A stretch of 64,000 nt of DNA from the NCBI GenBank assembly GCA_000002435.2, contig CM018791.1, one strand, 5' to 3'. The notes under the pieces were generated by a model. That model had not been told where the DNA came from. It did no database searches and was given only the letters and a program-made list of their open reading frames with translations. Position numbers and translations under genes: made by a program. The DNA comes from Giardia intestinalis. Taxonomy: Eukaryota. This document shows positions 886-18,826 of this stretch, in pieces (the stretch's first letter is position 1; each line of letters opens with the position of its first letter).

Positions 886-3800
886 CAGGCATATACTACC
901 TCCATGTCTGCACTCTGGATGCAACAACCACAGCGCAGCTGCATCTCCGATCATTCTGTGCACGCCTTCTGGCACGGGCAGGTGCGCCGGAGGGGGTGTA
1001 CTGCCCACCGCCGAGAAATGGATGAGCTCCTGGTCGGCCCGCCCCGCCTGGAACTTAGAGACCGCCATTCACGGCCGTGAAGAGAGTTCTCGCAAGTAAA
1101 TCTCTCGGGTTGATTCACACGGCGGGTAACCATCCGGTAGAATTCCGTATTGAATTAACTCGCTTAATTAAAAAGTTAGTATCCACGACAATATGGTGAG
1201 GCCCTGCCTGACCGTGGAAAATCAGTCAAAGGTGCTGCGCTGGCTTGCCACAGAGATCATAAACGCAATCCATCCAGAGGAGACGGTGGAGGACCTTCTT
1301 GCAAACCCGTGTCTGCTCCACTCGTACATGCTCAAAACATCCGTGGACTGGCATTGGATCTCTAACGAGGTTGGCGTGGACGAGAAGAAGGTTTCTCGTT
1401 GGTACTATGAAACGCACCTGCGCCACATCCTAACTATAAAGATGACTAACGAAGACCGTGGAGAGATTCGCAAGATTATCATCAATTGGATCCGCTGCCA
1501 GCAAGTTCCAGACGAGCGGCTTTACCAAGCAATTCATGAGAAGTTTGGAAAGAAGTACTCGCGTCAAGAGCTACGGATGACGTACTACAATATGCTTAAC
1601 AGTCGTTGCATACGGGCCGTCCTTACTGAGTGCAATATTCAGCGTCCGACAAGGCGGAGAAGGCCTCCTGAAACAGAGCGTGCAGGGCTATCTTCCTCGA
1701 CCGTCCTTCACATACCCGGGTATGCTTCCGGTCCTCAACCAGCCCCCTTAGACCATAGAAAGTTGTCCCAGTCAAGTACTCACAAGTATTCTCCAGAAGC
1801 AGCCTCTTTCTCTCAGATTGACGTCAAGGCAGAAAGTGGACTGAATAACGATATTCCAGATGAACCCGTTACCTTTAGTCCTCTTGCATTCCAGAGCATT
1901 GCCCAACAGCAACCGTACATTAAGCTACTCAATCTACAGTCAGTCCCGCTCTCCCTCGATATTAACGGCCAATTAGCATGCATCCCCCTAATCATAGTTG
2001 AGCCAGGAGCCAACATCTGGTCCATTACTCCCAATGAGGAGCCAGTGGGAGGCGCTGGACAGTAGCGTTCTTTGGTATTGCTCTTCTAACTCATGATAAA
2101 GGATTTGCCGCCTTTTATCTTGCAGAAGACTAGACTTATCTGTACCCCACACTTGATTGCAGATGCAGCAGGACCATGTGCAGGCCATGAAGGTCACGCA
2201 TTGACAAAGCAAACTGGAATTATTCACAGAGGTGGTTTTTGGCAAACTTGTAATCTAGTGGCACGTCATCTTTGGGCTAAGTTGCCTAACTTCTAATCGT
2301 ATATCTACGGCTTCCCTATTTACGCGGTTCTTTGCAGGAGCTAGACCTACTGAAGCATACTTAGCACATAATTCCGCAGATGAGGATACGCGATAATATT
2401 ATCAGCATCCCAATCTCATTCTTGTCAATAACGAATGTATCGATCCACAGATGCTAGTTTCTATCAGCCGAATTAGACTCGCTTAGCAGCCCGTAGAGAT
2501 GATGTAGCTCACCACCGAAGTACTTCCACATCTGCTTTTTTCCGTTTTAGACATAAAGTTGGAACTCATTATTTACCCCGTCAATGATTTTCTGCGTTCA
2601 CTGATGGGTGTATATTATTCTATATTGTCAGTTATCTAGGGACCTCTTTCATAGGAGCGCCACATCAACCCCCTTTATGTTCCTCTTACATTTTATTATG
2701 TGCTTTACATCTTCTTGTCTATCAATATTCACACCCCCATGGATATGCCAGATACATATCTGTATCATATGCTACTGTGATCATAGGTTTGTTGTAAATA
2801 AGGGTGTGATCGGTACCACCACAGAACTCGTTAAACCCTGTCTGCCTTGAGAGTACGCTAATGGGACTACATGCTCAATCTGAGCAGATGTCTGTGGGCT
2901 TGTGTGCTAGCTGGAATAAGATAGGTGACTACTCTGTATGATCATCCTGTTATCATGATTAGGTAGCCGCGAAAGATTAGACGTCATTGCAGGAGCAGAC
3001 AAGGCACTAGGACAGCGATTTGCTTTCCAAGGATGACGTGGATTAATAGGTTAGTAGGCAGTTCTTGGATGCAGGAGTATTAGTGGATTTGTAGACTCGC
3101 GTAGTTATGCATACAGGTCATGGTAGGGGCTCTGGTAATTCTCTGATGGTGGCCCACTTTGGCAAGAGCTCAGCTGGGAAAGGCAAGGCGCTGGACGAGG
3201 ACGCGGAGAAAGTTCGGCACCCCGTGTTCCCACGACGTCTCCGATCGCAGTACTGGCGGGGCCTGACGGCGCTTCTCTTCTTAATTCGGAACGAGTTAAG
3301 GAGTTTCCGCCGTAGGATGGCCGAACTGGCGGCTGAGGGAGCTGTGCGATGTGTCAGAGATTGTTAGAGATTCATACTGTATATTGTGCAATGGCTAACG
3401 TGTATGGGTGTCCCACCGAAGACCCGGTGAAGGATGGCACCGGAGATGAGACAGGATGACCCCTGGTGGAGGAGACCACGGTGCGGGCTTGCCTGCAGAT
3501 GCCGTGGCTAAAATCTCAGCCCGTCCAGGAATCTAACAGAGATTATGCAGCCGGACACTGGGACCTACCGGAGAGCCGCATCGCCCCTGCACGAGCCAGC
3601 AAGCACTGCCTTCGACCCGACCACAGTTGGGAACGCTCATGTCCGTGGATGCCGTCGGTCAGGTCCCTGAAGACCACCCTGCTCACAGCCCCAGGGATCC
3701 CTCTGCAGACTCTGATTTCTATATCCCTGGGGTAGATGTTTGCGGATAGCGGCACAGGGCTCAGCAGAACCGCCAGAAGATCCGCAGCACACTGTCATTA

Positions 3801-4727: not shown

Positions 4728-4756
4728 ACGAGCACAGTGACAGCAATGTACAGGAA
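4685..4756 (-). pseudogene. VSP C-terminal remnant: a transmembrane-like segment plus the CRGKA tail and stop. It is oriented away from the intact VSP gene.
   Basis: The minus-strand ORF 4685..4906 ends ...FLYIAVTVLVGFLCWWFLCRGKA-stop. Only the last 23 codons or so are VSP-like, and the upstream part of the ORF has no VSP features such as CxxC. The last 14 codons, the stop and the AGTAAAC signal (reverse-complemented at 4658..4664) are identical to the intact VSP. The preceding LVG codons differ only at synonymous positions (ctc gtc ggc versus ctt gtg ggc). Confidence 0.7.
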
Positions 4757-4987
4757 TGCATCCCGAACAATCATTCCACAAGAGAGGTGCGGTCTGAGTC
4801 TAGCCTCAACTGGTCCTATTTCTATGGAAGTCAGGAGGAACTGCACTGTCAGCTGGCCTCCGGTGGGCGTACTCCTATCTCGTCCTTCTCCAGTCCAACT
4901 GATCAAGGAGAGTAAGAGCGGCTGTCTCTTACTGCTCGCGGTAACACATCAGCCTGACGGAAGAGCAGTGGCATACGAACCCGGCTA

Positions 4988-7804
4988 ATGTTGGTAGGAT
5001 TTCTCTTAGTTTTTGTGGTAACACAGGCCAACTGCGCACAAGAGCTGACCCAGGCAGGCTGCAAGACGTGTGTCGGGGCAGACGCCGCCCAGACGTGTAC
5101 GGAGTGCACAACTTCTGGACACAAGGTACAGCTCGATAAAAGAAGCTGCGGCCCCACCTGCCCGGCGCACTCCACGGCCAGCTCGAACGTCTGCGAGTGC
5201 GACCAGGGATACACGCCCAACGCCGGGAAGACCGCGTGCGAGCCCAATCCCAGCGCGGGATGCGCACAAGAGCTGACCCAGGCAGGCTGCAAGACGTGTG
5301 TCGGGGCAGACGCCGCCCAGACGTGTACGGAGTGCACAACTTCTGGACACAAGGTACAGCTCGATAAAAGAAGCTGCGGCCCCACCTGCCCGGCGCACTC
5401 CACGGCCAGCTCGAACGTCTGCGAGTGCGACCAGGGATACACGCCCAACGCCGGGAAGACCGCGTGCGAGCCCAATCCCAGCGCGGGATGCGCACAAGAG
5501 CTGACCCAGGCAGGCTGCAAGACGTGTGTCGGGGCAGACGCCGCCCAGACGTGTACGGAGTGCACAACTTCTGGACACAAGGTACAGCTCGATAAAAGAA
5601 GCTGCGGCCCCACCTGCCCGGCGCACTCCACGGCCAGCTCGAACGTCTGCGAGTGCGACCAGGGATACACGCCCAACGCCGGGAAGACCGCGTGCGAGCC
5701 CAATCCCAGCGCGGGATGCGCACAAGAGCTGACCCAGGCAGGCTGCAAGACGTGTGTCGGGGCAGACGCCGCCCAGACGTGTACGGAGTGCACAACTTCT
5801 GGACACAAGGTACAGCTCGATAAAAGAAGCTGCGGCCCCACCTGCCCGGCGCACTCCACGGCCAGCTCGAACGTCTGCGAGTGCGACCAGGGATACACGC
5901 CCAACGCCGGGAAGACCGCGTGCGAGCCCAATCCCAGCGCGGGATGCGCACAAGAGCTGACCCAGGCAGGCTGCAAGACGTGTGTCGGGGCAGACGCCGC
6001 CCAGACGTGTACGGAGTGCACAACTTCTGGACACAAGGTACAGCTCGATAAAAGAAGCTGCGGCCCCACCTGCCCGGCGCACTCCACGGCCAGCTCGAAC
6101 GTCTGCGAGTGCGACCAGGGATACACGCCCAACGCCGGGAAGACCGCGTGCGAGCCCAATCCCAGCGCGGGATGCGCACAAGAGCTGACCCAGGCAGGCT
6201 GCAAGACGTGTGTCGGGGCAGACGCCGCCCAGACGTGTACGGAGTGCACAACTTCTGGACACAAGGTACAGCTCGATAAAAGAAGCTGCGGCCCCACCTG
6301 CCCGGCGCACTCCACGGCCAGCTCGAACGTCTGCGAGTGCGACCAGGGATACACGCCCAACGCCGGGAAGACCGCGTGCGAGCCCAATCCCAGCGCGGGA
6401 TGCGCACAAGAGCTGACCCAGGCAGGCTGCAAGACGTGTGTCGGGGCAGACGCCGCCCAGACGTGTACGGAGTGCACAACTTCTGGACACAAGGTACAGC
6501 TCGATAAAAGAAGCTGCGGCCCCACCTGCCCGGCGCACTCCACGGCCAGCTCGAACGTCTGCGAGTGCGACCAGGGATACACGCCCAACGCCGGGAAGAC
6601 CGCGTGCGAGCCCAATCCCAGCGCGGGATGCGCACAAGAGCTGACCCAGGCAGGCTGCAAGACGTGTGTCGGGGCAGACGCCGCCCAGACGTGTACGGAG
6701 TGCACAACTTCTGGACACAAGGTACAGCTCGATAAAAGAAGCTGCGGCCCCACCTGCCCGGCGCACTCCACGGCCAGCTCGAACGTCTGCGAGTGCGACC
6801 AGGGATACACGCCCAACGCCGGGAAGACCGCGTGCGAGGTGGCCTCTAACACGCAGTGTAATACTCCCAACTGCAAGATCTGTGATAACCCCAAAACAGA
6901 CAATGAAATCTGCACTGAATGTAATGACGGCGACTACCTCACTCCAACAAAGCAGTGTACGCAAAGCTGCGGAGCAATAGGAAGCTACTACAACGGAGAC
7001 AAAGTGTGCGAGCCCTGTAATCCTAGCTGTGCTGCGTGCACCACAAAGGGACCAGCGAAGTGCACGCTGTGTCCTCCCGGGAAGAGGCTCCAGTACACAG
7101 ATGAGAACAGTCCATCAAGCGGTACTTGCGTAGATGAGTGCAAGCCCCAGAGTGGAGCTAGCGGATGCGAGACCTGCGGAGCCACCATCGGAGGGACAAA
7201 GTATTGCTCGAAGTGCAGCACATCCACGGAGGTCCCCGTCAACGGAGTCTGTACAGCAGACAATGCCCGCGCGCCCGTATGCTCGAAAAAGGACAATCAG
7301 GGAGGGTGCACTACGTGTGCCAGTGGGTACTTCCGCCAGGACAACGGCTGCTATAAGACTGACAGACAGCCAGGCAAACAGATATGTACACTAGCTGATA
7401 GCAATGGTGGATGTCAGGCGTGTGCCAATGGTCTTCCTCCTAGTTCTTCTGACGTATGCCCCTCGTGTCATTTCACCTGCAAGACATGCTCGACCGCAGA
7501 CACTGCAAATACTTGTACAACGTGTGCAACTGGGTACTATATGGTCGGATCAGCAGCTGGACCATGCACTTCGTGTGACAGCAACAGTGGAAGTGTCAAG
7601 GGAGTTGCTGGCTGCATGAGCTGCGCTCCTCCATCTAATAATCAAGGCTCCGTCCTTTGCTACCTCATAAAGGATACCGGTAGCACCAACAGGAGCGGCC
7701 TCTCCACGGGGGCCATCGTGGGGATCTTCGTCGCAGTCATCGTTGTTGTGGGGGGCCTTGTGGGCTTCCTCTGCTGGTGGTTCCTGTGCAGGGGGAAGGC
7801 GTAG
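4988..7804 (+). CDS. vsp: Variant-specific surface protein (VSP), 938 aa. It has an N-terminal signal peptide, eight identical 76-aa Cys-rich repeats, a CxxC-rich body, a transmembrane helix and the invariant CRGKA cytoplasmic tail.
   Basis: ATG at 4988. The N-terminus MLVGFLLVFVVTQANC is hydrophobic. The protein is about 12% Cys with many CxxC motifs. The C-terminus ...GAIVGIFVAVIVVVGGLVGFLCWWFLCRGKA is the hallmark of the Giardia VSP family. AGTAAAC follows 21 nt after the TAG stop. Confidence 0.95.
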   Translation: MLVGFLLVFVVTQANCAQELTQAGCKTCVGADAAQTCTECTTSGHKVQLDKRSCGPTCPAHSTASSNVCECDQGYTPNAGKTACEPNPSAGCAQELTQAGCKTCVGADAAQTCTECTTSGHKVQLDKRSCGPTCPAHSTASSNVCECDQGYTPNAGKTACEPNPSAGCAQELTQAGCKTCVGADAAQTCTECTTSGHKVQLDKRSCGPTCPAHSTASSNVCECDQGYTPNAGKTACEPNPSAGCAQELTQAGCKTCVGADAAQTCTECTTSGHKVQLDKRSCGPTCPAHSTASSNVCECDQGYTPNAGKTACEPNPSAGCAQELTQAGCKTCVGADAAQTCTECTTSGHKVQLDKRSCGPTCPAHSTASSNVCECDQGYTPNAGKTACEPNPSAGCAQELTQAGCKTCVGADAAQTCTECTTSGHKVQLDKRSCGPTCPAHSTASSNVCECDQGYTPNAGKTACEPNPSAGCAQELTQAGCKTCVGADAAQTCTECTTSGHKVQLDKRSCGPTCPAHSTASSNVCECDQGYTPNAGKTACEPNPSAGCAQELTQAGCKTCVGADAAQTCTECTTSGHKVQLDKRSCGPTCPAHSTASSNVCECDQGYTPNAGKTACEVASNTQCNTPNCKICDNPKTDNEICTECNDGDYLTPTKQCTQSCGAIGSYYNGDKVCEPCNPSCAACTTKGPAKCTLCPPGKRLQYTDENSPSSGTCVDECKPQSGASGCETCGATIGGTKYCSKCSTSTEVPVNGVCTADNARAPVCSKKDNQGGCTTCASGYFRQDNGCYKTDRQPGKQICTLADSNGGCQACANGLPPSSSDVCPSCHFTCKTCSTADTANTCTTCATGYYMVGSAAGPCTSCDSNSGSVKGVAGCMSCAPPSNNQGSVLCYLIKDTGSTNRSGLSTGAIVGIFVAVIVVVGGLVGFLCWWFLCRGKA
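5033..6838 (+). repeat. In-frame tandem array of 7.9 copies of a 228-bp unit inside the VSP gene. All full copies are identical at the nucleotide level.
   Basis: Alternate-frame ORFs recur at exactly 228-bp spacing (5070, 5298 ... 6666). The sequence lines at 5041-5100 and 6181-6240 (5 x 228 bp apart) are letter-for-letter identical. The unit encodes AGCAQELTQAGCKTCVGADAAQTCTECTTSGHKVQLDKRSCGPTCPAHSTASSNVCECDQGYTPNAGKTACEPNPS, with 10 Cys. The last copy diverges at ...KTACEVASNTQ. Confidence 0.95.
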
Positions 7805-7824
7805 ACTTAGCTGTGTACTTAGGT

Positions 7825-7831
7825 AGTAAAC
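7825..7831 (+). promoter_or_regulatory. Giardia polyadenylation signal AGTAAAC (consensus AGTPuAAPy) downstream of the VSP stop.
   Basis: agtaaac lies 21 nt 3' of the TAG at 7802..7804. A mirrored copy (gtttact) sits at 4658..4664 downstream of the remnant on the minus strand. Confidence 0.7.
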
Positions 7832-10423
7832 GCATCGCCTATTGCACCTGCCCACTCCATGGCCGTTGCGCCGTCATTCCATAAAACCGTTGGACCACCT
7901 GTCTCCGAGCATCCGTCGAATCCTGCGGTAGGACCGCGCCTCCATGTTTTGCCGTGCCCGCTTCTGTATGGCAATGAGCACCCCCTACTATTGTACAACT
8001 ATTCCACCCAGAGGCAGGCGACACACAGACTCTTGGCTCTGATATGCGCCTCTGTGCACCATCTCTCGCACCTTAGCAGCCCGATTACGGCACCGTGTGG
8101 TCTGGGCACTCCCAAGCGGCGTGTGTCGGGCACCTGGTCGGCTATGCACAAGGCCCGTGGCAGTCAAGGCGTGCAGCGCTGGACTATCGCCTTAGGTACC
8201 CGGCGCATCCAAAGAGACGATATCTAGAAGAACGGCTAGTCACACCTTTCAACCATTAGTGTCTTGCAGCATCTCCAACGCAAGCCTCTAGGCAGCGGTT
8301 CGCAGTGTATACATGAGCTACAGGGGAGCTTGCCGCCAAACATGGTCTGTGTGCATAGACCGGTTACCGTTACTTGATGAAGTAGACGCTTCTCAGTCCG
8401 GGTACACCTGGTCCGCGTGATCTCCTTGCCCAAGCTCTTTTCTATAGCTATTACCATGTGCGGGGTCCAAGAGGGCAGCCATCGATTTCTAAGTGTGGGC
8501 TTGGCTCTGCTTCTACCAAGGTGTGCAGTTCTAAGCGTTGATGGACCACGCCCTAGCTGCAGGATCTCCTTCGTGGGAAGGAAGCTCCTCCACGGTCCTG
8601 TAGTCGCACCCTAGAAGTGTCTTACTCCAGTTCCAGTGCCATTATTGGTGGCTTAGCCATGGAATGAATACCGCAAGACGTTTATAGTTAATGACAGTGT
8701 GCTGCGGATCTTCTGGCGGTTCTGCTGAGCCCTGTGCCGCTATCCGCAAACATCTACCCCAGGGATATAGAAATCAGAGTCTGCAGAGGGATCCCTGGGG
8801 CTGTGAGCAGGGTGGTCTTCAGGGACCTGACCGACGGCATCCACGGACATGAGCGTTCCCAACTGTGGTCGGGTCGAAGGCAGTGCTTGCTGGCTCGTGC
8901 AGGGGCGATGCGGCTCTCCGGTAGGTCCCAGTGTCCGGCTGCATAATCTCTGTTAGATTCCTGGACGGGCTGAGATTTTAGCCACGGCATCTGCAGGCAA
9001 GCCCGCACCGTGGTCTCCTCCACCAGGGGTCATCCTGTCTCATCTCCGGTGCCATCCTTCACCGGGTCTTCGGTGGGACACCCATACACGTTAGCCATTG
9101 CACAATATACAGTATGAATCTCTAACAATCTCTGACACATCGCACAGCTCCCTCAGCCGCCAGTTCGGCCATCCTACGGCGGAAACTCCTTAACTCGTTC
9201 CGAATTAAGAAGAGAAGCGCCGTCAGGCCCCGCCAGTACTGCGATCGGAGACGTCGTGGGAACACGGGGTGCCGAACTTTCTCCGCGTCCTCGTCCAGCG
9301 CCTTGCCTTTCCCAGCTGAGCTCTTGCCAAAGTGGGCCACCATCAGAGAATTACCAGAGCCCCTACCATGACCTGTATGCATAACTACGCGAGTCTACAA
9401 ATCCACTAATACTCCTGCATCCAAGAACTGCCTACTAACCTATTAATCCACGTCATCCTTGGAAAGCAAATCGCTGTCCTAGTGCCTTGTCTGCTCCTGC
9501 AATGACGTCTAATCTTTCGCGGCTACCTAATCATGATAACAGGATGATCATACAGAGTAGTCACCTATCTTATTCCAGCTAGCACACAAGCCCACAGACA
9601 TCTGCTCAGATTGAGCATGTAGTCCCATTAGCGTACTCTCAAGGCAGACAGGGTTTAACGAGTTCTGTGGTGGTACCGATCACACCCTTATTTACAACAA
9701 ACCTATGATCACAGTAGCATATGATACAGATATGTATCTGGCATATCCATGGGGGTGTGAATATTGATAGACAAGAAGATGTAAAGCACATAATAAAATG
9801 TAAGAGGAACATAAAGGGGGTTGATGTGGCGCTCCTATGAAAGAGGTCCCTAGATAACTGACAATATAGAATAATATACACCCATCAGTGAACGCAGAAA
9901 ATCATTGACGGGGTAAATAATGAGTTCCAACTTTATGTCTAAAACGGAAAAAAGCAGATGTGGAAGTACTTCGGTGGTGAGCTACATCATCTCTACGGGC
10001 TGCTAAGCGAGTCTAATTCGGCTGATAGAAACTAGCATCTGTGGATCGATACATTCGTTATTGACAAGAATGAGATTGGGATGCTGATAATATTATCGCG
10101 TATCCTCATCTGCGGAATTATGTGCTAAGTATGCTTCAGTAGGTCTAGCTCCTGCAAAGAACCGCGTAAATAGGGAAGCCGTAGATATACGATTAGAAGT
10201 TAGGCAACTTAGCCCAAAGATGACGTGCCACTAGATTACAAGTTTGCCAAAAACCACCTCTGTGAATAATTCCAGTTTGCTTTGTCAATGCGTGACCTTC
10301 ATGGCCTGCACATGGTCCTGCTGCATCTGCAATCAAGTGTGGGGTACAGATAAGTCTAGTCTTCTGCAAGATAAAAGGCGGCAAATCCTTTATCATGAGT
10401 TAGAAGAGCAATACCAAAGAACG

Positions 10424-11296
10424 CTACTGTCCAGCGCCTCCCACTGGCTCCTCATTGGGAGTAATGGACCAGATGTTGGCTCCTGGCTCAACTATGATTA
10501 GGGGGATGCATGCTAATTGGCCGTTAATATCGAGGGAGAGCGGGACTGACTGTAGATTGAGTAGCTTAATGTACGGTTGCTGTTGGGCAATGCTCTGGAA
10601 TGCAAGAGGACTAAAGGTAACGGGTTCATCTGGAATATCGTTATTCAGTCCACTTTCTGCCTTGACGTCAATCTGAGAGAAAGAGGCTGCTTCTGGAGAA
10701 TACTTGTGAGTACTTGACTGGGACAACTTTCTATGGTCTAAGGGGGCTGGTTGAGGACCGGAAGCATACCCGGGTATGTGAAGGACGGTCGAGGAAGATA
10801 GCCCTGCACGCTCTGTTTCAGGAGGCCTTCTCCGCCTTGTCGGACGCTGAATATTGCACTCAGTAAGGACGGCCCGTATGCAACGACTGTTAAGCATATT
10901 GTAGTACGTCATCCGTAGCTCTTGACGCGAGTACTTCTTTCCAAACTTCTCATGAATTGCTTGGTAAAGCCGCTCGTCTGGAACTTGCTGGCAGCGGATC
11001 CAATTGATGATAATCTTGCGAATCTCTCCACGGTCTTCGTTAGTCATCTTTATAGTTAGGATGTGGCGCAGGTGCGTTTCATAGTACCAACGAGAAACCT
11101 TCTTCTCGTCCACGCCAACCTCGTTAGAGATCCAATGCCAGTCCACGGATGTTTTGAGCATGTACGAGTGGAGCAGACACGGGTTTGCAAGAAGGTCCTC
11201 CACCGTCTCCTCTGGATGGATTGCGTTTATGATCTCTGTGGCAAGCCAGCGCAGCACCTTTGACTGATTTTCCACGGTCAGGCAGGGCCTCACCAT
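10424..11296 (-). CDS. Right-arm copy of the 290-aa Myb/SANT-like protein, identical to 1193..2065.
   Basis: Identical 290-aa translation in the ORF track. It lies within the inverted-repeat arm. Confidence 0.6.
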   Translation of the reverse strand: MVRPCLTVENQSKVLRWLATEIINAIHPEETVEDLLANPCLLHSYMLKTSVDWHWISNEVGVDEKKVSRWYYETHLRHILTIKMTNEDRGEIRKIIINWIRCQQVPDERLYQAIHEKFGKKYSRQELRMTYYNMLNSRCIRAVLTECNIQRPTRRRRPPETERAGLSSSTVLHIPGYASGPQPAPLDHRKLSQSSTHKYSPEAASFSQIDVKAESGLNNDIPDEPVTFSPLAFQSIAQQQPYIKLLNLQSVPLSLDINGQLACIPLIIVEPGANIWSITPNEEPVGGAGQ

Positions 11297-12039
11297 ATTG
11301 TCGTGGATACTAACTTTTTAATTAAGCGAGTTAATTCAATACGGAATTCTACCGGATGGTTACCCGCCGTGTGAATCAACCCGAGAGATTTACTTGCGAG
11401 AACTCTCTTCACGGCCGTGAATGGCGGTCTCTAAGTTCCAGGCGGGGCGGGCCGACCAGGAGCTCATCCATTTCTCGGCGGTGGGCAGTACACCCCCTCC
11501 GGCGCACCTGCCCGTGCCAGAAGGCGTGCACAGAATGATCGGAGATGCAGCTGCGCTGTGGTTGTTGCATCCAGAGTGCAGACATGGAGGTAGTATATGC
11601 CTGCCAAGACAGCACACGACTTCCCTACAGCTCCTTGGCGTGTCGGCGCGTGAAGACAGAGGGCCAGCCAGGGTGAATGTCGTGGCCGGCCAGCTGCACA
11701 TCAGCTTTAGCTCACGGCCCAGAGAGCATTCAGTCGCCTGTTACCGGACGGGCCTGTCTGGTAGATCGTTGGCCCAGACCGCGGTGTTCGAGTCGTCTGG
11801 GCACATGGGAGAGCCCTGCCTTCGTCTGCTGTGTGTGGTCTCTTCAACGATGCGCAGAATGTGGGTTGCGCGACATCCAGACCGTCGCAGCCTGCGTCTG
11901 GTGGGCCCTGCGCTGTGCCGTGGTTGAGCATGCTACACGCTCTAGACATGACGGTCTCGTCACTGACCAGGCTCCGGCCATTAGCTGCTCCTACCGACCA
12001 CTCTTCGCCAACCACCAAGCAAGCCGGGGTCTCCAGTCC

Positions 12040-12849
12040 TCAACCCTTACTGGGGCTCGCATCAGCGCACCCAGGCACGCCTCCGTAGCCCGCAGGGGGG
12101 AAGCATGGCACGCATGCGAATGCAACGGGCGACCCGAGGAGACCCTGGCCCGTCTGGAGCGGGAGGACGCCAGGCCCAGGAACGACCCCGGGCGGGAGGG
12201 CGAGGACGAGGCACCCCGGCGCGTGCGGGGGCAGAAGCGCAGAGACCGCGCCCGGGGCCACAAAGACCGGCCCCCCGACGGGCGGCACCAGCGGAGGCGC
12301 GGCGCAACCAAGAACGCAGGGGGGCGGGGGAGAGGCCGCCACAGGAGATGCCCCCTCCTCCTGCTTGGCCGCCCTCGGGCCGTATGTGCGGCGCGGCAGC
12401 ACCACCCCGTGCTCCTCCAGGGCGGCGCGGACGTCCTGGGTGCGGAGCGCGTTGTTGTACGTCATCCGCAGCTCCTGGCGCGGATACTTCGCCCCGAAGC
12501 GCTCGTGGACCCTGCGGTAGAAGTCCGGGCCCAGGATGCTCCGGTCCCTGACCCCGGCGATGATCATCGCCTTGATGGCCCTGCGGTCCTCGCCAGTCAT
12601 CTTCACGTTGAGGATGCTCCGCGAGTGCGTCTCGCGGTACCAGTGGTAGATCCTGCTCCGGTCCTCGGACAGGGCGCGGGCGATCTTCTTCCAGTCGATG
12701 GCCGTCCGGAGCACGTGCCGGTGGAGGAGCAGCGGCCGCCGCGCGAGGCTCTCGGCCGTCTCCCCCAGCCGCCGGGCAGCGACGACCTGCTTCGCGAGCT
12801 CGAGCAGAACGGAGGCGCGCGTCTCCGCCGTCATTGCCCCAGAGCCCAT
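12040..12849 (-). CDS. Diverged, GC-rich paralog (269 aa) of the 290-aa Myb/SANT-like protein found in the inverted-repeat arms.
   Basis: ATG confirmed (cat at 12847..12849 on the plus strand). The stretch ...LLHRHVLRTAIDWKKIARALSEDRSRIYHWYRETHSRSILNVKMTGEDRRAIKAMIIAGV...FYRRVHERFGAKYPRQELRMTYNNALR... aligns collinearly with LLHSYMLKTSVDWHWISNEVGVDEKKVSRWYYETHLRHILTIKMTNEDRGEIRKIIINWI...LYQAIHEKFGKKYSRQELRMTYYNMLN of the 290-aa protein. The C-terminal tail is Pro/Ala/Gly-rich and unrelated. Confidence 0.6.
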   Translation of the reverse strand: MGSGAMTAETRASVLLELAKQVVAARRLGETAESLARRPLLLHRHVLRTAIDWKKIARALSEDRSRIYHWYRETHSRSILNVKMTGEDRRAIKAMIIAGVRDRSILGPDFYRRVHERFGAKYPRQELRMTYNNALRTQDVRAALEEHGVVLPRRTYGPRAAKQEEGASPVAASPPPPCVLGCAAPPLVPPVGGPVFVAPGAVSALLPPHAPGCLVLALPPGVVPGPGVLPLQTGQGLLGSPVAFACVPCFPPAGYGGVPGCADASPSKG

Positions 12850-14260
12850 CCGATAGAAGCAGCGATAAAACTAAAAACAGACCAACGAATAATGTGAAAT
12901 TAAATATGTACAGGCCTTGCACAAAAGTTTTAGCGGGTGTTTGTTGCCTGCCTGCCCCGGTCCGTCGGGCGAGCAGGGCGCCCTCACCCGGGCCATCGCC
13001 GCAGTACGAGCTGGCTTAGGCCGCCACACAGAACAGACCGCTTTGCACACGGCGGCGTCGGGGTTGATGTATTGATCGGAGTTTTTTGGTATTGCCGGGA
13101 ACCCCCGCCCTCGGCCACCAGGGAGAGCCGCACTCTGCGCAGCCCCGGTTTGTCTGCATATGCCCAGAGCTCTGCGGAGGCGGGCAGGCTGGGACCGTCC
13201 TCCTCGTTCGGGGCATCGCCGACGACGAGCTGTTGCCTGCGGCCCGCGGGGTCTTCCGCTCTGAGAGGGGCCACCGAGTGTCGTGGGCCGCAGCGCTCTG
13301 CAAGGCCTGCACACGACCAGAGGCTGCCAAGTTTTTTGAGCAACTGGCTCTGGCGCGGATTCTGCGGACACCTGCTGCCGGCCCAGTCTACAGGGGCGCC
13401 CGCGTGTCTACTGTGGCCTGGCGTGCGTTTCTGCGCGTCCTCCTGCGGCGGCTCCCCTCGTGGCGCAGGAAGCCCTGCCTGTCCTCTCCCACCGGGTTCT
13501 CCCGACGTGCTCTCCACCGCACCCAGCCGAGGTTCCAGCGGACAAAGGAGCGGCATGACCCAATCAGTCGCCAGATTACATTGTGCTCTGGAGCTGCGAA
13601 TCTTGCTGGCATCTCATGCGACAGTGGCTCTGGGTGTGCCCGCTCAGCAGCAGCTACCTCATCCACAGAGTGCTGATGCAGATATTATGCGCTACGTATC
13701 AGTGACCACAAGGGCACCGATAGACAGGGTCTCAGCCTCAGTGCACAGCCAAGGTTGCCAAGCATAGCGAGGCTTACATACTGAGCATGGGTCCGTGCCC
13801 CGCGTGGTCTTCTTAAGAACTAGTGCATGAGTGCTCGTGAGACGACGCCCCATATGAGGCGGGCTATCCGTTGTACGCGAAGCACAGCACAGCAGAAGTG
13901 GGTGATGCAGGGACCAGAGGGGGTGCTTCAGCACATCAGTCGTCGGCCCCTCTGCCTTCTGTCGCGCCTGATGGACTCTCCTCTATTATCGCAACTCGGT
14001 CGCGGTTGTCTGAGGAGAGGACTAGGTACTCAGCAGACAATGGAATCGCGTGGCCTGGACGCGATTTCGTGATGGCCAACATGGGTTATCAGGCTGGCTG
14101 TGGTCTGGATATGTGGTACAGCTTCCTTCACTCAAGCAGGTACGTAGCATTTTCACTGGTGTATATTGCACAGCCCCTTGGCACCTGTACCCGAGGCCAA
14201 CACCGCACCAGCTTTCTGATCGCTAGGACTGCCCGGGTGCGGACAAGGTGCTTCGTTCAC

Positions 14261-14998
14261 TTAGAAGTATATCTCGGCACGACGCCTGCGCTGTCTTATT
14301 GCATTGAGGTGATGGCGGCCGCCGTATTGTGTCTGTAGAAGTAGACGCCTGCGCGCATTGCTATCGTCTATCTTCTGCAGCAGCGATGCGTCGAAGCTCC
14401 CGGTAATGTTCTCTGGCTTGGACACCATCTTGGCGACGCTCTTGACATCCTCTTCTGTTAGGTAGTTGAACCTCCGAGGCTTCTTGTCTGGGCTGTCAGA
14501 CTCAGCCACCGGCTTCTGGGTCTTCTCCACCCCATTGATGAAGCCGCTGCCACGCAAAAGAGTCACGGGATAGACAAGGCCGCGCAGTATCTCAAAGACC
14601 GTCCCGGCGCCCAGCGTGTTTATGGCTGTCTGGAGCAGGCGGAGGCAGCGCAGGAGCATCACGTTATTTTCGTAGAAGGAGCAGCCGCCGCGAACCCTAT
14701 CGACATTCTCAGTGGACCCGGTCTGCAGGATATTGATCAGCTCTATGACGACGGCCTCCAGGATGCGGCCCTTGATGTTGCTGATGCCCTCAATGCACTC
14801 CTCATAAAGGCCCGAAAGGACCCCAGGCATCGCCACAAAGCGGCGCATCACCTGCTCCAGGATGGTCTGGATGTACTTGCAGGTCTGGGGGTAGCGCTGC
14901 GACGTCCTGCCGGGGTCAGCAAGAGATCGGTGCGTGGCGCTTTTATTAAGACCGGAGATGGCAGACGTAGAGCGGGTGTCTTTGAAATAACAAATCAC
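14261..14998 (-). CDS. Hypothetical alpha-helical protein, 245 aa as drawn. The start is uncertain.
   Basis: Long ORF in a gene-dense context. The codon at 14996..14998 is GTG rather than ATG. The first in-frame ATG is M51, at about 14848. The 69-aa ORF 14946..15155(-) in another frame has a proper ATG and abuts this ORF. That pattern could mean a frameshift or that the true start is internal. Confidence 0.4.
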   Translation of the reverse strand: MICYFKDTRSTSAISGLNKSATHRSLADPGRTSQRYPQTCKYIQTILEQVMRRFVAMPGVLSGLYEECIEGISNIKGRILEAVVIELINILQTGSTENVDRVRGGCSFYENNVMLLRCLRLLQTAINTLGAGTVFEILRGLVYPVTLLRGSGFINGVEKTQKPVAESDSPDKKPRRFNYLTEEDVKSVAKMVSKPENITGSFDASLLQKIDDSNARRRLLLQTQYGGRHHLNAIRQRRRRAEIYF

Positions 14999-15710
14999 GT
15001 TGTAATTCTCCAGGATGATGGGCTACGTGCAGACAGGAGTCTATAGTAATTGTGCTAGGTCTATGTATTATGTACTTCACACTGATTGATAACAAAGATA
15101 ACGAGGAGAATTTTGATTGAAACCAGAAACTGGCTGCAATGATAGCAGTGCCCATTTTTCATCGGTAAAGGTCTAAAAGTCTTTGCTTCACCTCTATTTT
15201 ACTTAAGCGGATAATAAAAATGATATTCAACAATTATTTTGAAAATAAAGTTGCTAGTGTAGAAAAGATACATGCGTCTCTGGTTAAGACTGAAAATGTG
15301 TATGCGTGAGGTTGTTGTGCTAAGAGGAACTTTTTTGCGTTCTAAATGCTGGGACAAGTAGCTACCGACACAATATTTTTATACTCGTTAAGCATAGTAT
15401 TGCAAGTGCCAGCGACTCATCTGTTATAATAGTGCTATTTGAACAAGAATGCTAGCAAGATAATGCACACACTGCGGTATCTAAATAGTGTCCTAGTCTC
15501 TACACAGGTATGCCTGACGTTAAAAGTATGAAGATTGGAGGCGTATCTACGACAGTAAGAGTAAATGACATGGTAGGGCTCAACTATACAATGAGAAAGA
15601 TCATCTACGGTGTTGAGCCATGAGGCCAAACTCAGAACACGGAAATAAGTCCGTGTAGTAATTTGAATAGTTTCAAAATTCAAAACTCAGTTCTTGATAA
15701 TCTCCAGTCA

Positions 15711-18700
15711 ATGAGCTCTAAAACAGAGATCCCAATAATTACCGACGAGGGGGACTTTAGCGCTGAGTATGAAACGTTTTGTCAGGCAATGAACGGAGTT
15801 GCCGATGGAACATTCATCTGTGTGAGCGTTTTTGGACCACAGTCTTCCGGAAAGTCAACCCTTCTCAATGACCTTTTTGGGACTAGCTTCAAGACAATGG
15901 ACTTATCAGCGGGGCGAACTCAAACCACGAAAGGAATCATGGCACGTGCAGTAGACTTCCAAACGAAAGTCGCCCCTCGGGTTCTTATTCTAGATTGTGA
16001 AGGCTCAGATAGCCGCGAACGTAACCAGCAAGAGGCACAGAACATTGAAAGACACATAGGATGCTTTGCAGCTGCAGTGAGTGATCTGCTGATAATAAAT
16101 GTGTGGAACCACGATATAGGGCGCCACTCCGCTGCAAATTATAACATACTCTCTACCATCTTTGACATCTACTTTAGGTCCTTGCTTAAGGCACGTAGAA
16201 AATCAGGCAATCATAGGCCCTTAATTTTACTAATTGCAATCCGAGACGCCGAAGAGGACGGGGCAGAACTGACGCAAAGGACATTCGAGTCTGATGTTCA
16301 CCATATCTATGAGCAATCCGTTCCTAAGCAGTACCATGGCTCTTTCAGAGACTACTTCTGCCTGCGATTTTGGTTTATTCCTCACCGAAGATATATGAAA
16401 TCGTTGTACGATGAAAAGATTACGCAGCTAAAAACAGATATCAAGGAAATCTTCGATTCCTTACTCGGTGCTGAGACAGCAACCACTCTAATACCCCTTA
16501 CGGATTCGTCTATATACTATAACAACATCTGGGACATCGTTCGGACTGACAAAGACTTGGATATCCCAAGTCAGAGGGAGATAGTATCTAACATAAGATG
16601 CGAAGAATTCTATTTGGAGGCTATAGAGCAGTTTTCCTCGCAAGTCGGCAAAGTATTTGCAGATGTCACGGCAGCAATTCAGGTTTCCTTGGGTCAGCAA
16701 AGCTCAACCTTTTTGGAGCAGAGCCCGGACGCCGTTAAAGATTATCCTATAACAAAACTACATAACGCTTGCAATTCTTTCAAGCTAACAAAGGTTCTGA
16801 TGGATCTTTCACAAGAATGTGTCGCCTTGTATCGCAGAAAGACACGGCACTACATTCCCAAGGTGGTTACTCAATGGGCTACTAAGCTCAATGACGATGT
16901 TTTGGCCGGATTGAAGAAAGTGGCTCACAGCTTTGCAAAGGGCATCCGAGAGTCTACCTGCCAGGCACTAGGTGCTGTCACGGCTCCGTTTCGGGTACAG
17001 ATTACACAGTGGCTCGAGCGACACGAGTATAGCGATGACTACGCGTCCAATACTAATACGGTAGATATACTTGTACCAGATCTTATAAGCGACTTGACAT
17101 TCCCACAGAAGCGACTCACCGATCTTATGGGTTTGCTTGGTGCTGCGACAAGGGTGTTTCATAAGTGCATTTCTGTCAATTGGGCCCATGAGTATTCAGG
17201 TCTTTGTGATACCGGAATCCTCGTTAACCTACCACCAAATGATGTAGGGCCTAATTCTAATGTACGCATCGGTGACAACGCTATAGAAACGAATGCAGGC
17301 TCATCTGTCAGGTTGTCTGTCGGTTATGAGGCATCAGAGCCCATGGTGGACGCCCATATCGATGATTCTGGAGCCTTTTTCTCAGATATTAGGCAAACTG
17401 GAGTGTATTCGCCTCATCTTTATGCATTTCTGGAGAGTCTTTCGCTATCTACCTACGGGAAGGCGTTGTCGCTGCAGAAGTTGCCTGCCGCTCCTCCTGA
17501 TGTTGCCAACGCTTATGATGCTGTTTGCCTACTCCATACCATTATACTACTGTGGTACTGTGAAACAATGATGCCACTGAGTCTTATATATGACATCACA
17601 CCAGAGATAGACCACGTTATCCCAGAGTCCAATGCTCTCTTCTGCGAGACAATGGGCAGCATTTTGGCCGCCGTTGCGGAGGCTGTTTCCAGCCAGACAC
17701 GTACCATTACGGCGTCGATGACTCAAGCGACTGCACGCCTAATGGATGACAAACTCTACGTGACACTCGGATCTCTCCGAGGTGTTATTTATGAGTCAGC
17801 AAGAAAAACCCTTGAGCGCTCTTTCTTTTCGCTGCTCTCATCCGCCTTTGTCGCCCCCGATCACCAAGGACTGCTCTACTTGCAAACACGCCTCTCCAGC
17901 CCCTCAATTTACTTTGATCTTCACTTTGATTCCAGCTCCAGATCCAGCCCTACAGACTCTATTCTACCAGATACACAGAATCCTGTATATAAGCAGTATA
18001 CAGATATATATTTATTTTCGACGTTACCAGCTCTTCTCTCGCCGCTTCCACGAGCGTATAATACAGTAGGAACTCGTCTCTCGTCAGGGTCTAGCTCAAT
18101 CCAGTCGCTACTTCCTCGCTACAGAGCTGTCCCCATTGTAGCTGCTCTTGATATGTCTGCCTTTTACATTCCACAAGCAGCTTTGTCCTCGTTCATGGAT
18201 AGAGTTGACGCAGAGATAATAGAGTTAATTAATAAAAGTCTCGGGGAATTCTTCTCTAAGAGTTTTCCTCTAGTCCTGCAAAACAAGATACATACTAAGC
18301 TAGTATATGACGATCAAGGAGCACAGCGTTCTTACATTTCGGAGAATTCTATATTGACAGAGTTTCTTTCAGAGAAGAAAGGTCTCATATCTATGGCGCA
18401 GTTGTTTGAGGGAGGGACTCTTATAACAGAGAACCTGCATTCTGTGACAATAAAACCTACTTCGCAAGAAAAGATTGATGCTATGCTTCGGTGTGCTGAA
18501 GCAGAGTGGGATAAGACGTATCAAGAAGCCTTGGAAATATATCGTACCAACAAGCACAAGGATAAATATAAGTGGGTATGGTTAGGCCTGTGCGTTTTCC
18601 TTATGCTTACTCGCAAGTGGGTATATGCAGTTTTGCTAAGCAAGTACTGTCTCTGCATCACAATATTACTTCTTTCTGTTGGTCTTTTCGTTTATCAGCG

Positions 18701-18818
18701 AACGACTCCTGACGAGCGCAACGCGTCTTTTTCCATTGTAGCCACTAGCATTAGAGAGAGAGACGTTGGACAGTTTTGGGACGCTACTAAACGTTTGGCT
18801 CAAAAGGTCATCCATTGA
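15711..18818 (+). CDS. SEY1: Sey1/RHD3-type (atlastin-like) dynamin-superfamily GTPase of the ER, with two C-terminal transmembrane segments.
   Basis: It contains VSVFGPQSSGKSTLLNDLFGTSF...GRTQTTKGI and LILDCEGSDSRER, matching the RHD3/Sey1 G1-G3 region. The C-terminus has hydrophobic WVWLGLCVFLMLT...ITILLLSVGLFVY segments. The track ORF starts at TTG 15663, and the first ATG is M17 at 15711. Confidence 0.8.
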   Translation: MSSKTEIPIITDEGDFSAEYETFCQAMNGVADGTFICVSVFGPQSSGKSTLLNDLFGTSFKTMDLSAGRTQTTKGIMARAVDFQTKVAPRVLILDCEGSDSRERNQQEAQNIERHIGCFAAAVSDLLIINVWNHDIGRHSAANYNILSTIFDIYFRSLLKARRKSGNHRPLILLIAIRDAEEDGAELTQRTFESDVHHIYEQSVPKQYHGSFRDYFCLRFWFIPHRRYMKSLYDEKITQLKTDIKEIFDSLLGAETATTLIPLTDSSIYYNNIWDIVRTDKDLDIPSQREIVSNIRCEEFYLEAIEQFSSQVGKVFADVTAAIQVSLGQQSSTFLEQSPDAVKDYPITKLHNACNSFKLTKVLMDLSQECVALYRRKTRHYIPKVVTQWATKLNDDVLAGLKKVAHSFAKGIRESTCQALGAVTAPFRVQITQWLERHEYSDDYASNTNTVDILVPDLISDLTFPQKRLTDLMGLLGAATRVFHKCISVNWAHEYSGLCDTGILVNLPPNDVGPNSNVRIGDNAIETNAGSSVRLSVGYEASEPMVDAHIDDSGAFFSDIRQTGVYSPHLYAFLESLSLSTYGKALSLQKLPAAPPDVANAYDAVCLLHTIILLWYCETMMPLSLIYDITPEIDHVIPESNALFCETMGSILAAVAEAVSSQTRTITASMTQATARLMDDKLYVTLGSLRGVIYESARKTLERSFFSLLSSAFVAPDHQGLLYLQTRLSSPSIYFDLHFDSSSRSSPTDSILPDTQNPVYKQYTDIYLFSTLPALLSPLPRAYNTVGTRLSSGSSSIQSLLPRYRAVPIVAALDMSAFYIPQAALSSFMDRVDAEIIELINKSLGEFFSKSFPLVLQNKIHTKLVYDDQGAQRSYISENSILTEFLSEKKGLISMAQLFEGGTLITENLHSVTIKPTSQEKIDAMLRCAEAEWDKTYQEALEIYRTNKHKDKYKWVWLGLCVFLMLTRKWVYAVLLSKYCLCITILLLSVGLFVYQRTTPDERNASFSIVATSIRERDVGQFWDATKRLAQKVIH

Positions 18819-18826
18819 GCCATTGA

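What the first reader, a model, noticed from the sequence alone, without database searches (positions are those of the whole stretch)
11604..13800. A sharply bounded GC-rich island abutting the right arm, with ORFs open on both strands and in several frames
Immediately outside the arm boundary the composition jumps, by eye to roughly two-thirds G+C. The window is otherwise near 50%. Overlapping ORFs of 150-400 aa appear on both strands (11677..12897+, 12040..12849-, 12062..12922-, 12871..13371-, 12937..13767+, 12984..13556-). Only one of these (12040..12849-) has independent support, from homology to the arm gene. The remaining 0.9 kb (12900..13800) is unexplained. It could hold a real GC-rich gene, a decayed paralog, or non-coding repeat. 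The abrupt compositional boundary coincides exactly with the palindrome edge, which suggests the junction of two different sequence domains.
Basis: seen in the sequence. Interest (0 to 1): 0.5.

Follow-up and report, generated by a model that had tools for sequence, protein, structure and literature searches.

The report
GC-rich multicopy Giardia gene segment
The GC-rich island is one copy of a roughly 2.2 kb segment repeated at least seven times in the Giardia WB genome; it holds one real gene for a helical, probably DNA-binding protein, and the other open reading frames are most likely by-products of the high G+C content, so the finding is largely ordinary.

Summary
The window is Giardia duodenalis WB. 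The island is real: about 0.68 G+C against about 0.47 to its left. Its left edge lies near 11412, which is 160-215 nt inside the palindrome arm and not at the arm edge (11607). On the right, G+C steps down to 0.56 near 13542 and reaches baseline only at 14981. All six listed ORFs exist.

Only 12040..12849(-) is a gene. It is GL50803_0061066, and its GC3 is 0.87 overall and 0.96 in the N-terminal domain. The gene occurs in at least seven near-identical copies on four WB chromosomes. Its N-terminal 150 aa form a confident all-helical fold with weak Myb/homeodomain-like similarity. Homologues occur in Giardia and Hexamita.

The two long ORFs that overlap this gene have their first codon position on its third position, so stop codons are almost excluded there.

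The stretch 12900-13612 is the non-coding 5' flank of the repeated segment. It shows flat codon-position G+C and frameshifting indels in the P15 copy, and the GS copy has no counterpart. I found no RNA family match and no excess folding energy. The stretch 13613-13800 is locus-specific spacer.

Copies are mosaics, 93-100% identical in the 5' flank and N-terminal CDS but 60-81% in the 3' flank. This points to partial gene conversion. GC-biased conversion is a plausible but untested cause of the flank composition.

The parts
11459..13612 (-). The repeated GC-rich segment as present in this window (about 2.15 kb): 3' flank, gene and 5' flank. It is truncated at 11459 relative to other copies.
   Evidence: L001 aligns only to window 11459..13612 at 94% and has unrelated flanks. 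The P15 copy starts aligning at 13613, and L004/L005/L007 end at 11459. Past the 11459 equivalent, the other copies still match one another but not this window.
12040..12849 (-). Real gene GL50803_0061066 (269 aa). Residues 1-150 (12400-12849) form a helical Myb/homeodomain-like domain. Residues 151-269 (12040-12399) form a Pro/Gly/Ala-rich tail predicted to be disordered.
   Evidence: Exact match to the NCBI protein. GC1/2/3 is 0.73/0.56/0.87, and GC3 in the N-terminal domain is 0.96. There are no indels in the N-terminal domain in the compared copies from assemblages A, E and B. AlphaFold pLDDT is above 90 for most of residues 11-150 and below 50 from residue 156.
12850..12960 (-). Conserved AT-rich proximal upstream block, the presumed core promoter of the gene.
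   Evidence: 90-98% identical between WB and the P15 copy while the rest of the flank is 56-82%. Partly conserved even in assemblage B (GS).
12961..13612 (.). Non-coding distal 5' flank of the repeated segment.
   Evidence: GC1/2/3 is flat in all ORFs. The P15 copy has 15 indels, 14 of them not multiples of 3, and substitutions are spread evenly over codon phases. Amino-acid identity to P15 is 34-49% in every frame against about 77% nucleotide identity. The GS copy has no counterpart. RNA folding z-scores are 0.49 and 0.18. Rfam gives no hit. The family profile finds no match here.
11459..12039 (.). Non-coding 3' flank of the repeated segment. It is much more diverged between copies than the 5' part.
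   Evidence: 81% identical to L004/L005 with 1-nt and 10-nt indels, and about 60% to L007 with large indels. GC1/2/3 is flat in its ORFs. Its stop-free runs fall within the shuffled range.
11459..11607 (.). Outermost 149 nt of the right palindrome arm. It belongs to the segment's 3' flank and is mirrored at 882-1030.
   Evidence: The arms are 882-4732 and 7757-11607 at 100% complementarity. L001, L004 and L005 match both 11459-11607 and 882-1030. The sequence left of 882 is unrelated and AT-rich.
13613..14260 (.). Locus-specific spacer (G+C 0.57) between the repeated segment and the next gene. It contains the withdrawn ORF GL50803_98638 (13555..13767+).
   Evidence: Shared only with the syntenic loci L005/L006 at about 92%, with a 2-nt indel. 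Absent from L001. The 70-aa ORF appears only under an old-annotation identifier.
14261..14998 (-). Neighbouring real gene with no recognised domain. It forms the GC-elevated shoulder (G+C 0.57, GC3 0.73) that ends at the 14981 drop.
   Evidence: Substitutions between WB and L005 fall 3/0/14 on codon positions 1/2/3. GC1/2/3 is 0.55/0.41/0.73. No Pfam hit.
10424..11296 (-). Arm gene GL50803_116968 (290 aa), a distant paralogue of the island gene with ordinary composition. Its mirror copy is at 1193..2065(+).
   Evidence: 42% identity over the N-terminal 144 aa. G+C 0.50 and GC3 0.56. Exact match to the NCBI protein.

Best explanation
The island is one member of a dispersed, multicopy segment of about 2.2 kb in Giardia duodenalis. 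It contains one real gene on the minus strand (12040..12849, GL50803_0061066). On either side lie about 760 nt of non-coding 5' flank and about 580 nt of non-coding 3' flank that were duplicated together with the gene.

The gene encodes a 150-residue all-helical N-terminal domain with a Myb/homeodomain-like fold, so it is probably a DNA-binding protein. A proline-rich tail predicted to be disordered follows. The domain family occurs in Giardia and Hexamita, and the palindrome-arm gene is a distant member.

The high G+C has three layers:
- G or C at nearly every third codon position (shown). In Giardia this is the signature of optimal codons and high expression; high expression of this particular gene is inferred.
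- A Gly/Ala/Pro-rich tail (shown).
- Flanks of 0.62-0.65 G+C (shown).

Copies are kept almost identical across the 5' flank and N-terminal coding region by ectopic gene conversion, while the 3' part diverges. The mosaic pattern is shown; conversion is inferred from it. GC-biased conversion is a plausible driver of the flank composition, but this is inferred and untested.

The ORFs on both strands are by-products. Inside the gene, the two longest have their first codon position on the gene's third position, where T and A are almost absent, so stop codons cannot form. In the flanks, stop codons are simply rare at 0.67 G+C.

The palindrome edge is the breakpoint of a later inverted duplication that copied the last 149 nt of this segment into the left arm (inferred).
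For: Organism and gene identity.

Multicopy status: seven WB locus tags on chromosomes of 1.54, 1.97, 2.76 and 4.02 Mb, with 148-150 of 150 identical residues in the N-terminal domain.

The same segment in four different gene neighbourhoods. The copy next to the kinesin gene is orthologous between assemblages A2 and E.

Coding signal only in 12040..12849(-).

Flanks non-coding.

Near-neutral divergence of the 5' flank between syntenic loci: 43 substitutions in 678 nt, against 52 in 648 nt of neighbouring spacer and 14 third-position changes in the neighbouring gene.

Mosaic identity: 5' flank plus N-terminal CDS 93-100%, 3' part 60-81%.

Overlapping-ORF phase.

Literature context: all Giardia optimal codons end in G or C (PMC8393687). 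6.9% of the WB genome is duplicated, mostly in stretches holding one gene, and the old annotation over-called small overlapping ORFs (PMC7000408). Giardia genes involved in gene conversion have higher G+C, median 0.541 against 0.488 (PMC12669663).
Against: DNA of the other six WB copies could not be fetched, so the copy number rests on protein records and the segment boundaries rest on other isolates.

The 5' flank has about half the expected stop trinucleotides on both strands, and one frame is open for 277 codons, beyond all 500 shuffles. This model does not fully explain that.

Flank G+C (0.62-0.65) is well below the gene's GC3 (0.87-0.96). If biased conversion acts, it cannot be the only force.

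My periodicity control had little power. Even the real CDS shows no third-position excess of substitutions between WB and GS (26/23/26 on positions 1/2/3).

The Myb-like assignment is weak. Foldseek found nothing with E below 0.3, the protein itself has no Pfam hit, and a profile search of PDB sequences found nothing.

No expression data were examined.
Confidence: 0.75

Rival explanations
1. A second protein-coding gene lies in 12900-13800, for example 12937..13767(+) or 12984..13556(-), perhaps transcribed divergently from the shared AT-rich block.
For: The stop-free runs exceed the dinucleotide shuffles, and stop trinucleotides are depleted about two-fold on both strands. Gene callers placed ORFs here in related contigs. 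The old WB annotation had GL50803_98638 at 13555..13767(+).
Against: G+C is flat across codon positions. The P15 copy has 14 frameshifting indels. Amino-acid identity to P15 is 34-49% in all frames, below the 77% nucleotide identity, and matches switch frame. The callers chose different strands and frames in different contigs. The full-length ATG-start ORF 12984..13556(-) is not in the protein collection, and the only match in this stretch is the withdrawn 70-aa GL50803_98638. The flank is absent from the GS copy. No Pfam hit.
Confidence: 0.04
2. The 5' flank encodes a non-coding RNA transcribed away from the gene from the conserved AT-rich block at 12850-12960.
For: About 110 nt next to the start codon are 90-98% conserved between assemblages A and E and partly conserved in B, which is longer than a minimal Giardia promoter. 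T6 runs lie on the plus strand at about 13083-13088 and 13332-13337. Bidirectional transcription is common in Giardia (my own knowledge, not checked here).
Against: Rfam gives no match at E up to 0.1. Folding energy does not differ from shuffles on either strand (z 0.49 and 0.18). Divergence between syntenic loci is at the neutral level. The Giardia ncRNA 3'-end motif CCTTYNHTHAA does not occur in 11300-13800. The GS copy has no counterpart beyond about -110.
Confidence: 0.08
3. The segment is a mobile element or its decayed remnant, and the HTH protein derives from a transposase DNA-binding domain.
Against: There are no terminal inverted or direct repeats and no target-site duplication at the boundaries. 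No catalytic domain was found in the protein or in three frames of the 2.7 kb downstream of a longer copy. The kinesin-side copy sits at the same position in assemblages A2 and E, so it has been stable for a long time. The 3' boundary at 11459 is a truncation specific to this locus and not an element end.
Confidence: 0.07
4. The island is foreign or rDNA-derived sequence placed next to the palindrome.
For: Its composition differs strongly from its surroundings. Giardia rDNA is very GC-rich (my own knowledge). 5S rRNA genes lie nearby in the arms.
Against: No rRNA family other than 5S matches in 1-20000. The gene belongs to a family found in Giardia and Hexamita inflata. Its composition is within the published range for Giardia genes, 39-81% G+C with GC3s up to 99% (PMC8393687).
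Confidence: 0.02

Closest known systems
One-gene segmental duplications of the Giardia WB genome (Xu et al. 2020, PMC7000408)
   Same: A short stretch holding a single gene is present in several nearly identical copies on different chromosomes. The locus tags carry the 'd' and '006xxxx' forms introduced for duplicated and new genes in that assembly.
   Different: I did not find this particular family or its GC-rich flanks in the passages of that paper returned by my term search. Full-text searches for six of the family's locus tags found no paper. Here the copies are mosaics, with the 5' part homogenised and the 3' part diverged.
Myb/SANT tandem-repeat DNA-binding domains (for example SNAPc4, c-Myb R2R3, Reb1)
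   Different: No sequence-level membership: the protein has no Pfam hit and no profile match to PDB sequences, and Foldseek found nothing significant. The domain has nine helices in 150 residues, more than two canonical Myb repeats would give.
Bipartite HTH domains of Tc1/mariner and pogo transposases (Tc3, CENP-B type)
   Different: There is no DDE domain, no terminal repeats and no target-site duplication.
Multicopy gene families homogenised by gene conversion, with raised G+C
   Same: Paralogues within a lineage are far more alike (93-99%) than the cross-assemblage (A to E) comparison of the same non-coding flank (about 77-78%). The homogenised tract ends abruptly inside the segment. In Giardia, genes in conversion events have higher G+C (PMC12669663).
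   Different: The direction of the substitutions (AT to GC or the reverse) was not measured. The gene's GC3 is far above the flank G+C, so codon selection is also needed to explain it.

Membership tests
Protein-coding gene in 12900-13800 | Codon-position asymmetry of composition (GC3 different from GC2) | tested here: not met
   GC1/2/3 of the candidate ORFs is flat, for example 0.64/0.67/0.64 and 0.73/0.61/0.68. The real gene gives 0.73/0.56/0.87.
Protein-coding gene in 12900-13800 | Reading frame preserved in diverged copies | tested here: not met
   The P15 copy has 15 indels, 14 of them not multiples of three. tblastn matches switch frame, and amino-acid identity (34-49%) is below the nucleotide identity.
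Protein-coding gene in 12900-13800 | Homologues or domains in protein databases | tested here: not met
   No Pfam hit. The ATG-start ORF 12984..13556(-) is absent from the protein collection, and only the withdrawn 70-aa GL50803_98638 is found. The family profile finds nothing in six frames of the flanks. I ran no further search on these ORFs.
Structured non-coding RNA in the flanks | Match to a curated RNA family | tested here: not met
   Only 5S rRNA matched in 1-20000 at E up to 0.1.
Structured non-coding RNA in the flanks | Folding energy beyond composition, or covariation | tested here: not met
   z-scores are 0.49 and 0.18 for the two strands of 12935-13612. Covariation was not tested: the close copies are too similar, and P15 is the only diverged one.
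Giardia ncRNA gene (Hudson et al. 2012, PMC3510501) | 12-nt 3'-end processing motif CCTTYNHTHAA downstream of an AT-rich initiator | tested here: not met
   There is no match in 11300-13800. The nearest is at 14125-14135(+), outside the finding.
Transposable element | Terminal inverted or direct repeats and target-site duplication | tested here: not met
   Repeats within 11350-13750 are all 24 nt or shorter and none is terminal. The flanking sequences of five copies show no duplicated target.
Transposable element | Transposase, integrase or reverse-transcriptase domain | tested here: not met
   No Pfam domain in the protein or in three frames of the 2.7 kb downstream of the L007 copy.
Transposable element | Presence/absence polymorphism at a site | tested here: inconclusive
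   The segment occurs in four different neighbourhoods, but no empty site was available for comparison. One site is occupied in both assemblages A2 and E.
Myb/SANT DNA-binding domain | Sequence passes the family model's threshold | tested here: not met
   The protein has no Pfam hit even at E up to 5. Among 40 homologues the best Myb_DNA-bind_8 hit is E 0.017 and the best Myb_DNA-bind_6 hit is E 0.0086, which I read as sub-threshold.
Myb/SANT DNA-binding domain | Three-helix bundle repeats superposable on solved Myb domains | tested here: inconclusive
Myb/SANT DNA-binding domain | Sequence-specific DNA binding | not testable with these tools
   This needs EMSA, DAP-seq or ChIP.
Multicopy segment homogenised by gene conversion | Several copies in one genome | tested here: met
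   Seven WB locus tags on four chromosomes encode proteins at least 90% identical. Two copies (L001 and L005) come from one metagenome sample, which could still be a mixed infection.
Multicopy segment homogenised by gene conversion | Mosaic identity between the same pair of copies, with a homogenised tract next to a diverged tract | tested here: met
   Window against L007: 93-99% over the 5' flank and N-terminal CDS, about 60% with large indels over the 3' flank. Window against L005: 94-100% against 70-92%. L001 against L005: 98.8% against 77%.
Multicopy segment homogenised by gene conversion | GC bias of the converted changes | not tested
   This needs DNA of all WB copies and an outgroup to polarise substitutions. 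The WB genome could not be fetched.

The most novel reading that the evidence does not exclude
The segment may be more than a passive duplicate. It could be a previously undescribed dispersed genetic unit of Giardia in which an HTH/Myb-like protein and its conserved GC-rich flanks act together. The protein might bind its own flanks and promote recombination or spread of the unit. Alternatively, the flank might produce a divergent transcript from the invariant AT-rich block. This reading would account for three things left unexplained: the two-fold depletion of stop trinucleotides on both strands of the 5' flank, the sharp shared 5' boundary, and the strong conservation of synonymous sites in the N-terminal domain across assemblages A, E and B.
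Probability: 0.1. Interest if true: 0.55.

Novelty: new member of a known kind. Interest (0 to 1): 0.25.

Why it matters
The main value is corrective.

- It shows why high-GC stretches of Giardia produce long ORFs on both strands, and which one is real. This supports the pruning of overlapping ORFs in the 2020 WB annotation.
- It shows that the palindrome edge is a duplication breakpoint inside an older repeated segment. This suggests the direction of the inverted duplication: right arm original, left arm copy.
- It flags an uncharacterised gene family, found in Giardia and Hexamita, with a confident helical and probably DNA-binding fold. The family is present in at least seven near-identical copies with extreme codon bias, which predicts an abundant nuclear protein of unknown role.
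- The mosaic identity between copies offers a small, tractable case for measuring ectopic gene conversion and its GC bias in an organism whose sexuality is debated.

Tried and rejected
- Pfam scans of all six ORFs and the neighbouring gene gave nothing.
- Rfam at a permissive E-value found only the 5S genes.
- RNA folding of both strands of the 5' flank showed no signal.
- Foldseek against the PDB and a profile search of PDB sequences gave nothing significant. The afdb50 structure library was unavailable.
- The DNA of the WB paralogues was not on record, so I used other isolates and metagenome contigs.
- Substitution periodicity as a coding test was flat in the flanks, but it was also flat in the real CDS between WB and GS. 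I therefore rely on indels, composition and protein-level identity instead.
- A six-frame profile search for a decayed paralogue in the flanks found none.
- A search for a decayed transposase downstream of a longer copy found none.
- Searches for terminal repeats and target duplications found none.
- The bacterial-type promoter and terminator scan is not applicable to Giardia and I ignored it.
- Full-text literature searches for the locus tags gave no hits.
Full report
**Organism and setting.** The window has closely packed intron-free ORFs that include ankyrin-repeat proteins and ankyrin-repeat kinases. ORF 12040..12849(-) is 100% identical to hypothetical protein GL50803_0061066 of Giardia duodenalis WB. 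The first 12 kb hold a perfect palindrome with arms at 882-4732 and 7757-11607. Each arm carries a 5S rRNA gene and a copy of a 290-aa gene, GL50803_116968.

**Which ORF is a gene?** Only 12040..12849(-) has a coding composition, with GC1/2/3 of 0.73/0.56/0.87. Every other ORF in 11400-13800 is flat across codon positions. The gene's N-terminal 150 codons have GC3 of 0.96 here and 0.93-0.97 in copies from assemblages A, E and B. This region has no indels in any compared copy.

The two long ORFs that overlap the gene, 11677..12897(+) and 12062..12922(-), both have their first codon position on the gene's third position. Only 8 A and 26 T occur there among 270 codons. A stop codon needs T at its first position, so stops are nearly impossible in those two frames. 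These ORFs are by-products of the real gene.

**What is 12900-13800?** Related loci answer this.
- A metagenome-derived Giardia contig (L001) matches the window only over 11459..13612, at 94%, and has unrelated genes on both sides.
- The P15 (assemblage E) copy and the DH (assemblage A2) copy lie next to a kinesin gene. Their similarity to the window begins at 13613 and 13659 respectively.
- L004, L005 and L006 share the gene at 14261..14998 or the 5S gene with the window, so they appear syntenic. They align from 14977 down to 11459.

So 12900-13612 is the 5' flank of a repeated segment, and 13613-13800 is locus-specific spacer.

The flank is not coding.
- The P15 copy differs by 15 indels, 14 of them frameshifting, and substitutions fall evenly on the three phases.
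- Translated comparisons give 34-49% identity in all frames, against about 77% at the nucleotide level, and the matches switch frame.
- Gene callers picked different strands and frames in different contigs.
- Of the candidate ORFs looked up, the ATG-start ORF 12984..13556(-) is not in the protein collection. Only a 70-aa ORF that carries an old-annotation identifier alone (GL50803_98638) is found. Xu et al. 2020 state that the first annotation over-called small overlapping ORFs (PMC7000408).
- The assemblage B (GS) copy has no counterpart of the flank beyond about 110 nt upstream of the start codon.

The flank is not a decayed paralogue, because a family profile searched against six-frame translations finds only the three known copies in the window. 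It shows no sign of a structured RNA: Rfam gives nothing, folding z-scores are 0.49 and 0.18, and the Giardia ncRNA 3'-end motif is absent (motif from PMC3510501).

Between the syntenic loci (WB and L005) the flank has diverged about as much as neighbouring spacer and synonymous sites: 43 substitutions in 678 nt, against 52 in 648 nt and 14 third-position changes in 717 nt of gene. Only the 110 nt next to the start codon are clearly constrained. I take this block to be the promoter.

**One residue remains unexplained.** In 12935-13612, stop trinucleotides are about half the number expected from dinucleotide shuffles, on both strands (p 0.019 and 0.004). One frame stays open for 277 codons, beyond all 500 shuffles. 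Uneven G+C within the region may contribute, but I did not resolve this.

**The segment is multicopy.** The WB proteome holds seven locus tags for this protein on chromosomes of 1.54, 1.97, 2.76 and 4.02 Mb. They share 148-150 of 150 identical residues in the N-terminal domain. This fits the report that 6.9% of the WB genome is duplicated, mostly in one-gene stretches (PMC7000408).

The copies are mosaics. Window against the DH copy is 93-99% over the 5' flank and N-terminal CDS, but about 60% with large indels over the 3' flank. L001 against L005, which come from one sample, is 98.8% against 77%. In contrast, the orthologous A2 and E copies are only 78% identical over the flank and gene, while the surrounding genes are 86.5% identical. 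Paralogues within a lineage are thus more alike than the cross-assemblage comparison of the same flank, and the similar tract ends abruptly. I take this as evidence for partial gene conversion.

Giardia genes involved in conversion events are reported to be more GC-rich (PMC12669663). GC-biased conversion is therefore a reasonable contributor to the 0.62-0.65 G+C of the flanks, but I could not measure the direction of the changes. The much higher GC3 of the gene fits the known Giardia rule that optimal codons end in G or C (PMC8393687), which predicts high expression. That prediction is an inference.

**The arm junction.** Past the 11459 equivalent, the other copies still resemble one another but not this window. 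The copy here is therefore truncated at 11459. The stretch 11459-11607 belongs both to the segment and to the right arm, and it is mirrored at 882-1030, beyond which the sequence is unrelated and AT-rich. The simplest reading is that the right arm is the original and the inverted duplication copied 149 nt of the segment's 3' flank into the left arm.

A profile search of 1.8 billion representative proteins finds 80 relatives. The named ones I looked up are from Giardia and Hexamita inflata. Among 40 relatives, 10 give weak HTH_23 hits, 7 give Myb_DNA-bind_8 and 4 give Myb_DNA-bind_6.

I conclude that it works like a helix-turn-helix DNA-binding protein, but it is not a demonstrated member of the Myb family. 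I found no support for a mobile element: there are no terminal repeats, no target duplications and no catalytic domain, and one copy is at the same site in two assemblages.

**Verdict.** The island is real but ordinary. It is one copy of a repeated one-gene segment with non-coding GC-rich flanks, and the ORFs on both strands are most likely by-products of composition. Interest is low. The stop depletion in the flank, the conservation of synonymous sites and the uncharacterised protein family are the only points worth further work.

Noticed in passing
window 5033-6928 (inside ORF 4988..7804 +): Eight tandem copies of a 228-nt unit, seven of them 100% identical, fill the centre of the palindrome. 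The ORF's 3' end matches the 3' end of a VSP gene in the GS isolate (L003 1672-1780, 81%). The unit length and copy number match the 'Girep' tandem repeats (Girep-3 has 7 x 228 nt and Girep-4 has 8 x 228 nt), which are reported as transcribed on both strands and similar to VSP genes (PMC2817412).
   Followed up: partly
window 3209-3328 (-) and 9161-9280 (+): A full-length 5S rRNA gene (88 bits, E 5e-18) sits in each palindrome arm. A related Giardia contig (L004) also has the 5S region downstream of the GC-rich segment, but it is separated by about 1.4 kb of different sequence that lacks the arm gene.
   Followed up: partly
window 14124-14135 (+): TCCTTCACTCAA is an exact match to the 12-nt Giardia ncRNA 3'-end processing motif (PMC3510501). 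It lies in a fully conserved block (about 14085-14139, WB against L005/L006) within otherwise roughly 92%-identical spacer. It could mark an unannotated small RNA ending here. Rfam gave no hit, and about 2.4 motif matches per window are expected by chance.
   Followed up: partly
window 882-1030 and 11459-11607: The outer 149 nt of both palindrome arms are a fragment of the repeated segment's 3' flank. This implies that the right arm is the original and the left arm is the copy.
   Followed up: yes
window 12400-12849 (-): Synonymous sites of the N-terminal domain are unusually conserved. WB against GS shows 26 third-position differences in 150 codons, against 49 at first and second positions combined. 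Genome-wide coding identity between WB and GS is about 77% (PMC3510501). Nucleotide identity to the P15 copy is 88-100% per 50-nt bin. No cause was established.
   Followed up: partly
window 12935-13612: Stop trinucleotides are depleted about two-fold on both strands relative to dinucleotide shuffles, although every other test indicates non-coding sequence.
   Followed up: partly
window 14261-14998 (-): This is a real gene with no recognisable domain: substitutions against L005 fall 3/0/14 on codon positions 1/2/3. The version starting at the first ATG (14848) is not in the protein collection, so its annotated start probably differs.
   Followed up: partly
L004 and L005 (equivalent to window 12190-12400): In this related lineage the syntenic copy lacks about 211 nt of the low-complexity C-terminal coding region. 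This gives a 191-aa product, so the tail tolerates large deletions.
   Followed up: no
window 882-4732 / 7757-11607: The 3,851-nt arms are 100% identical. This means either a very recent duplication, ongoing arm-to-arm conversion, or an assembly effect. I could not distinguish these here.
   Followed up: no
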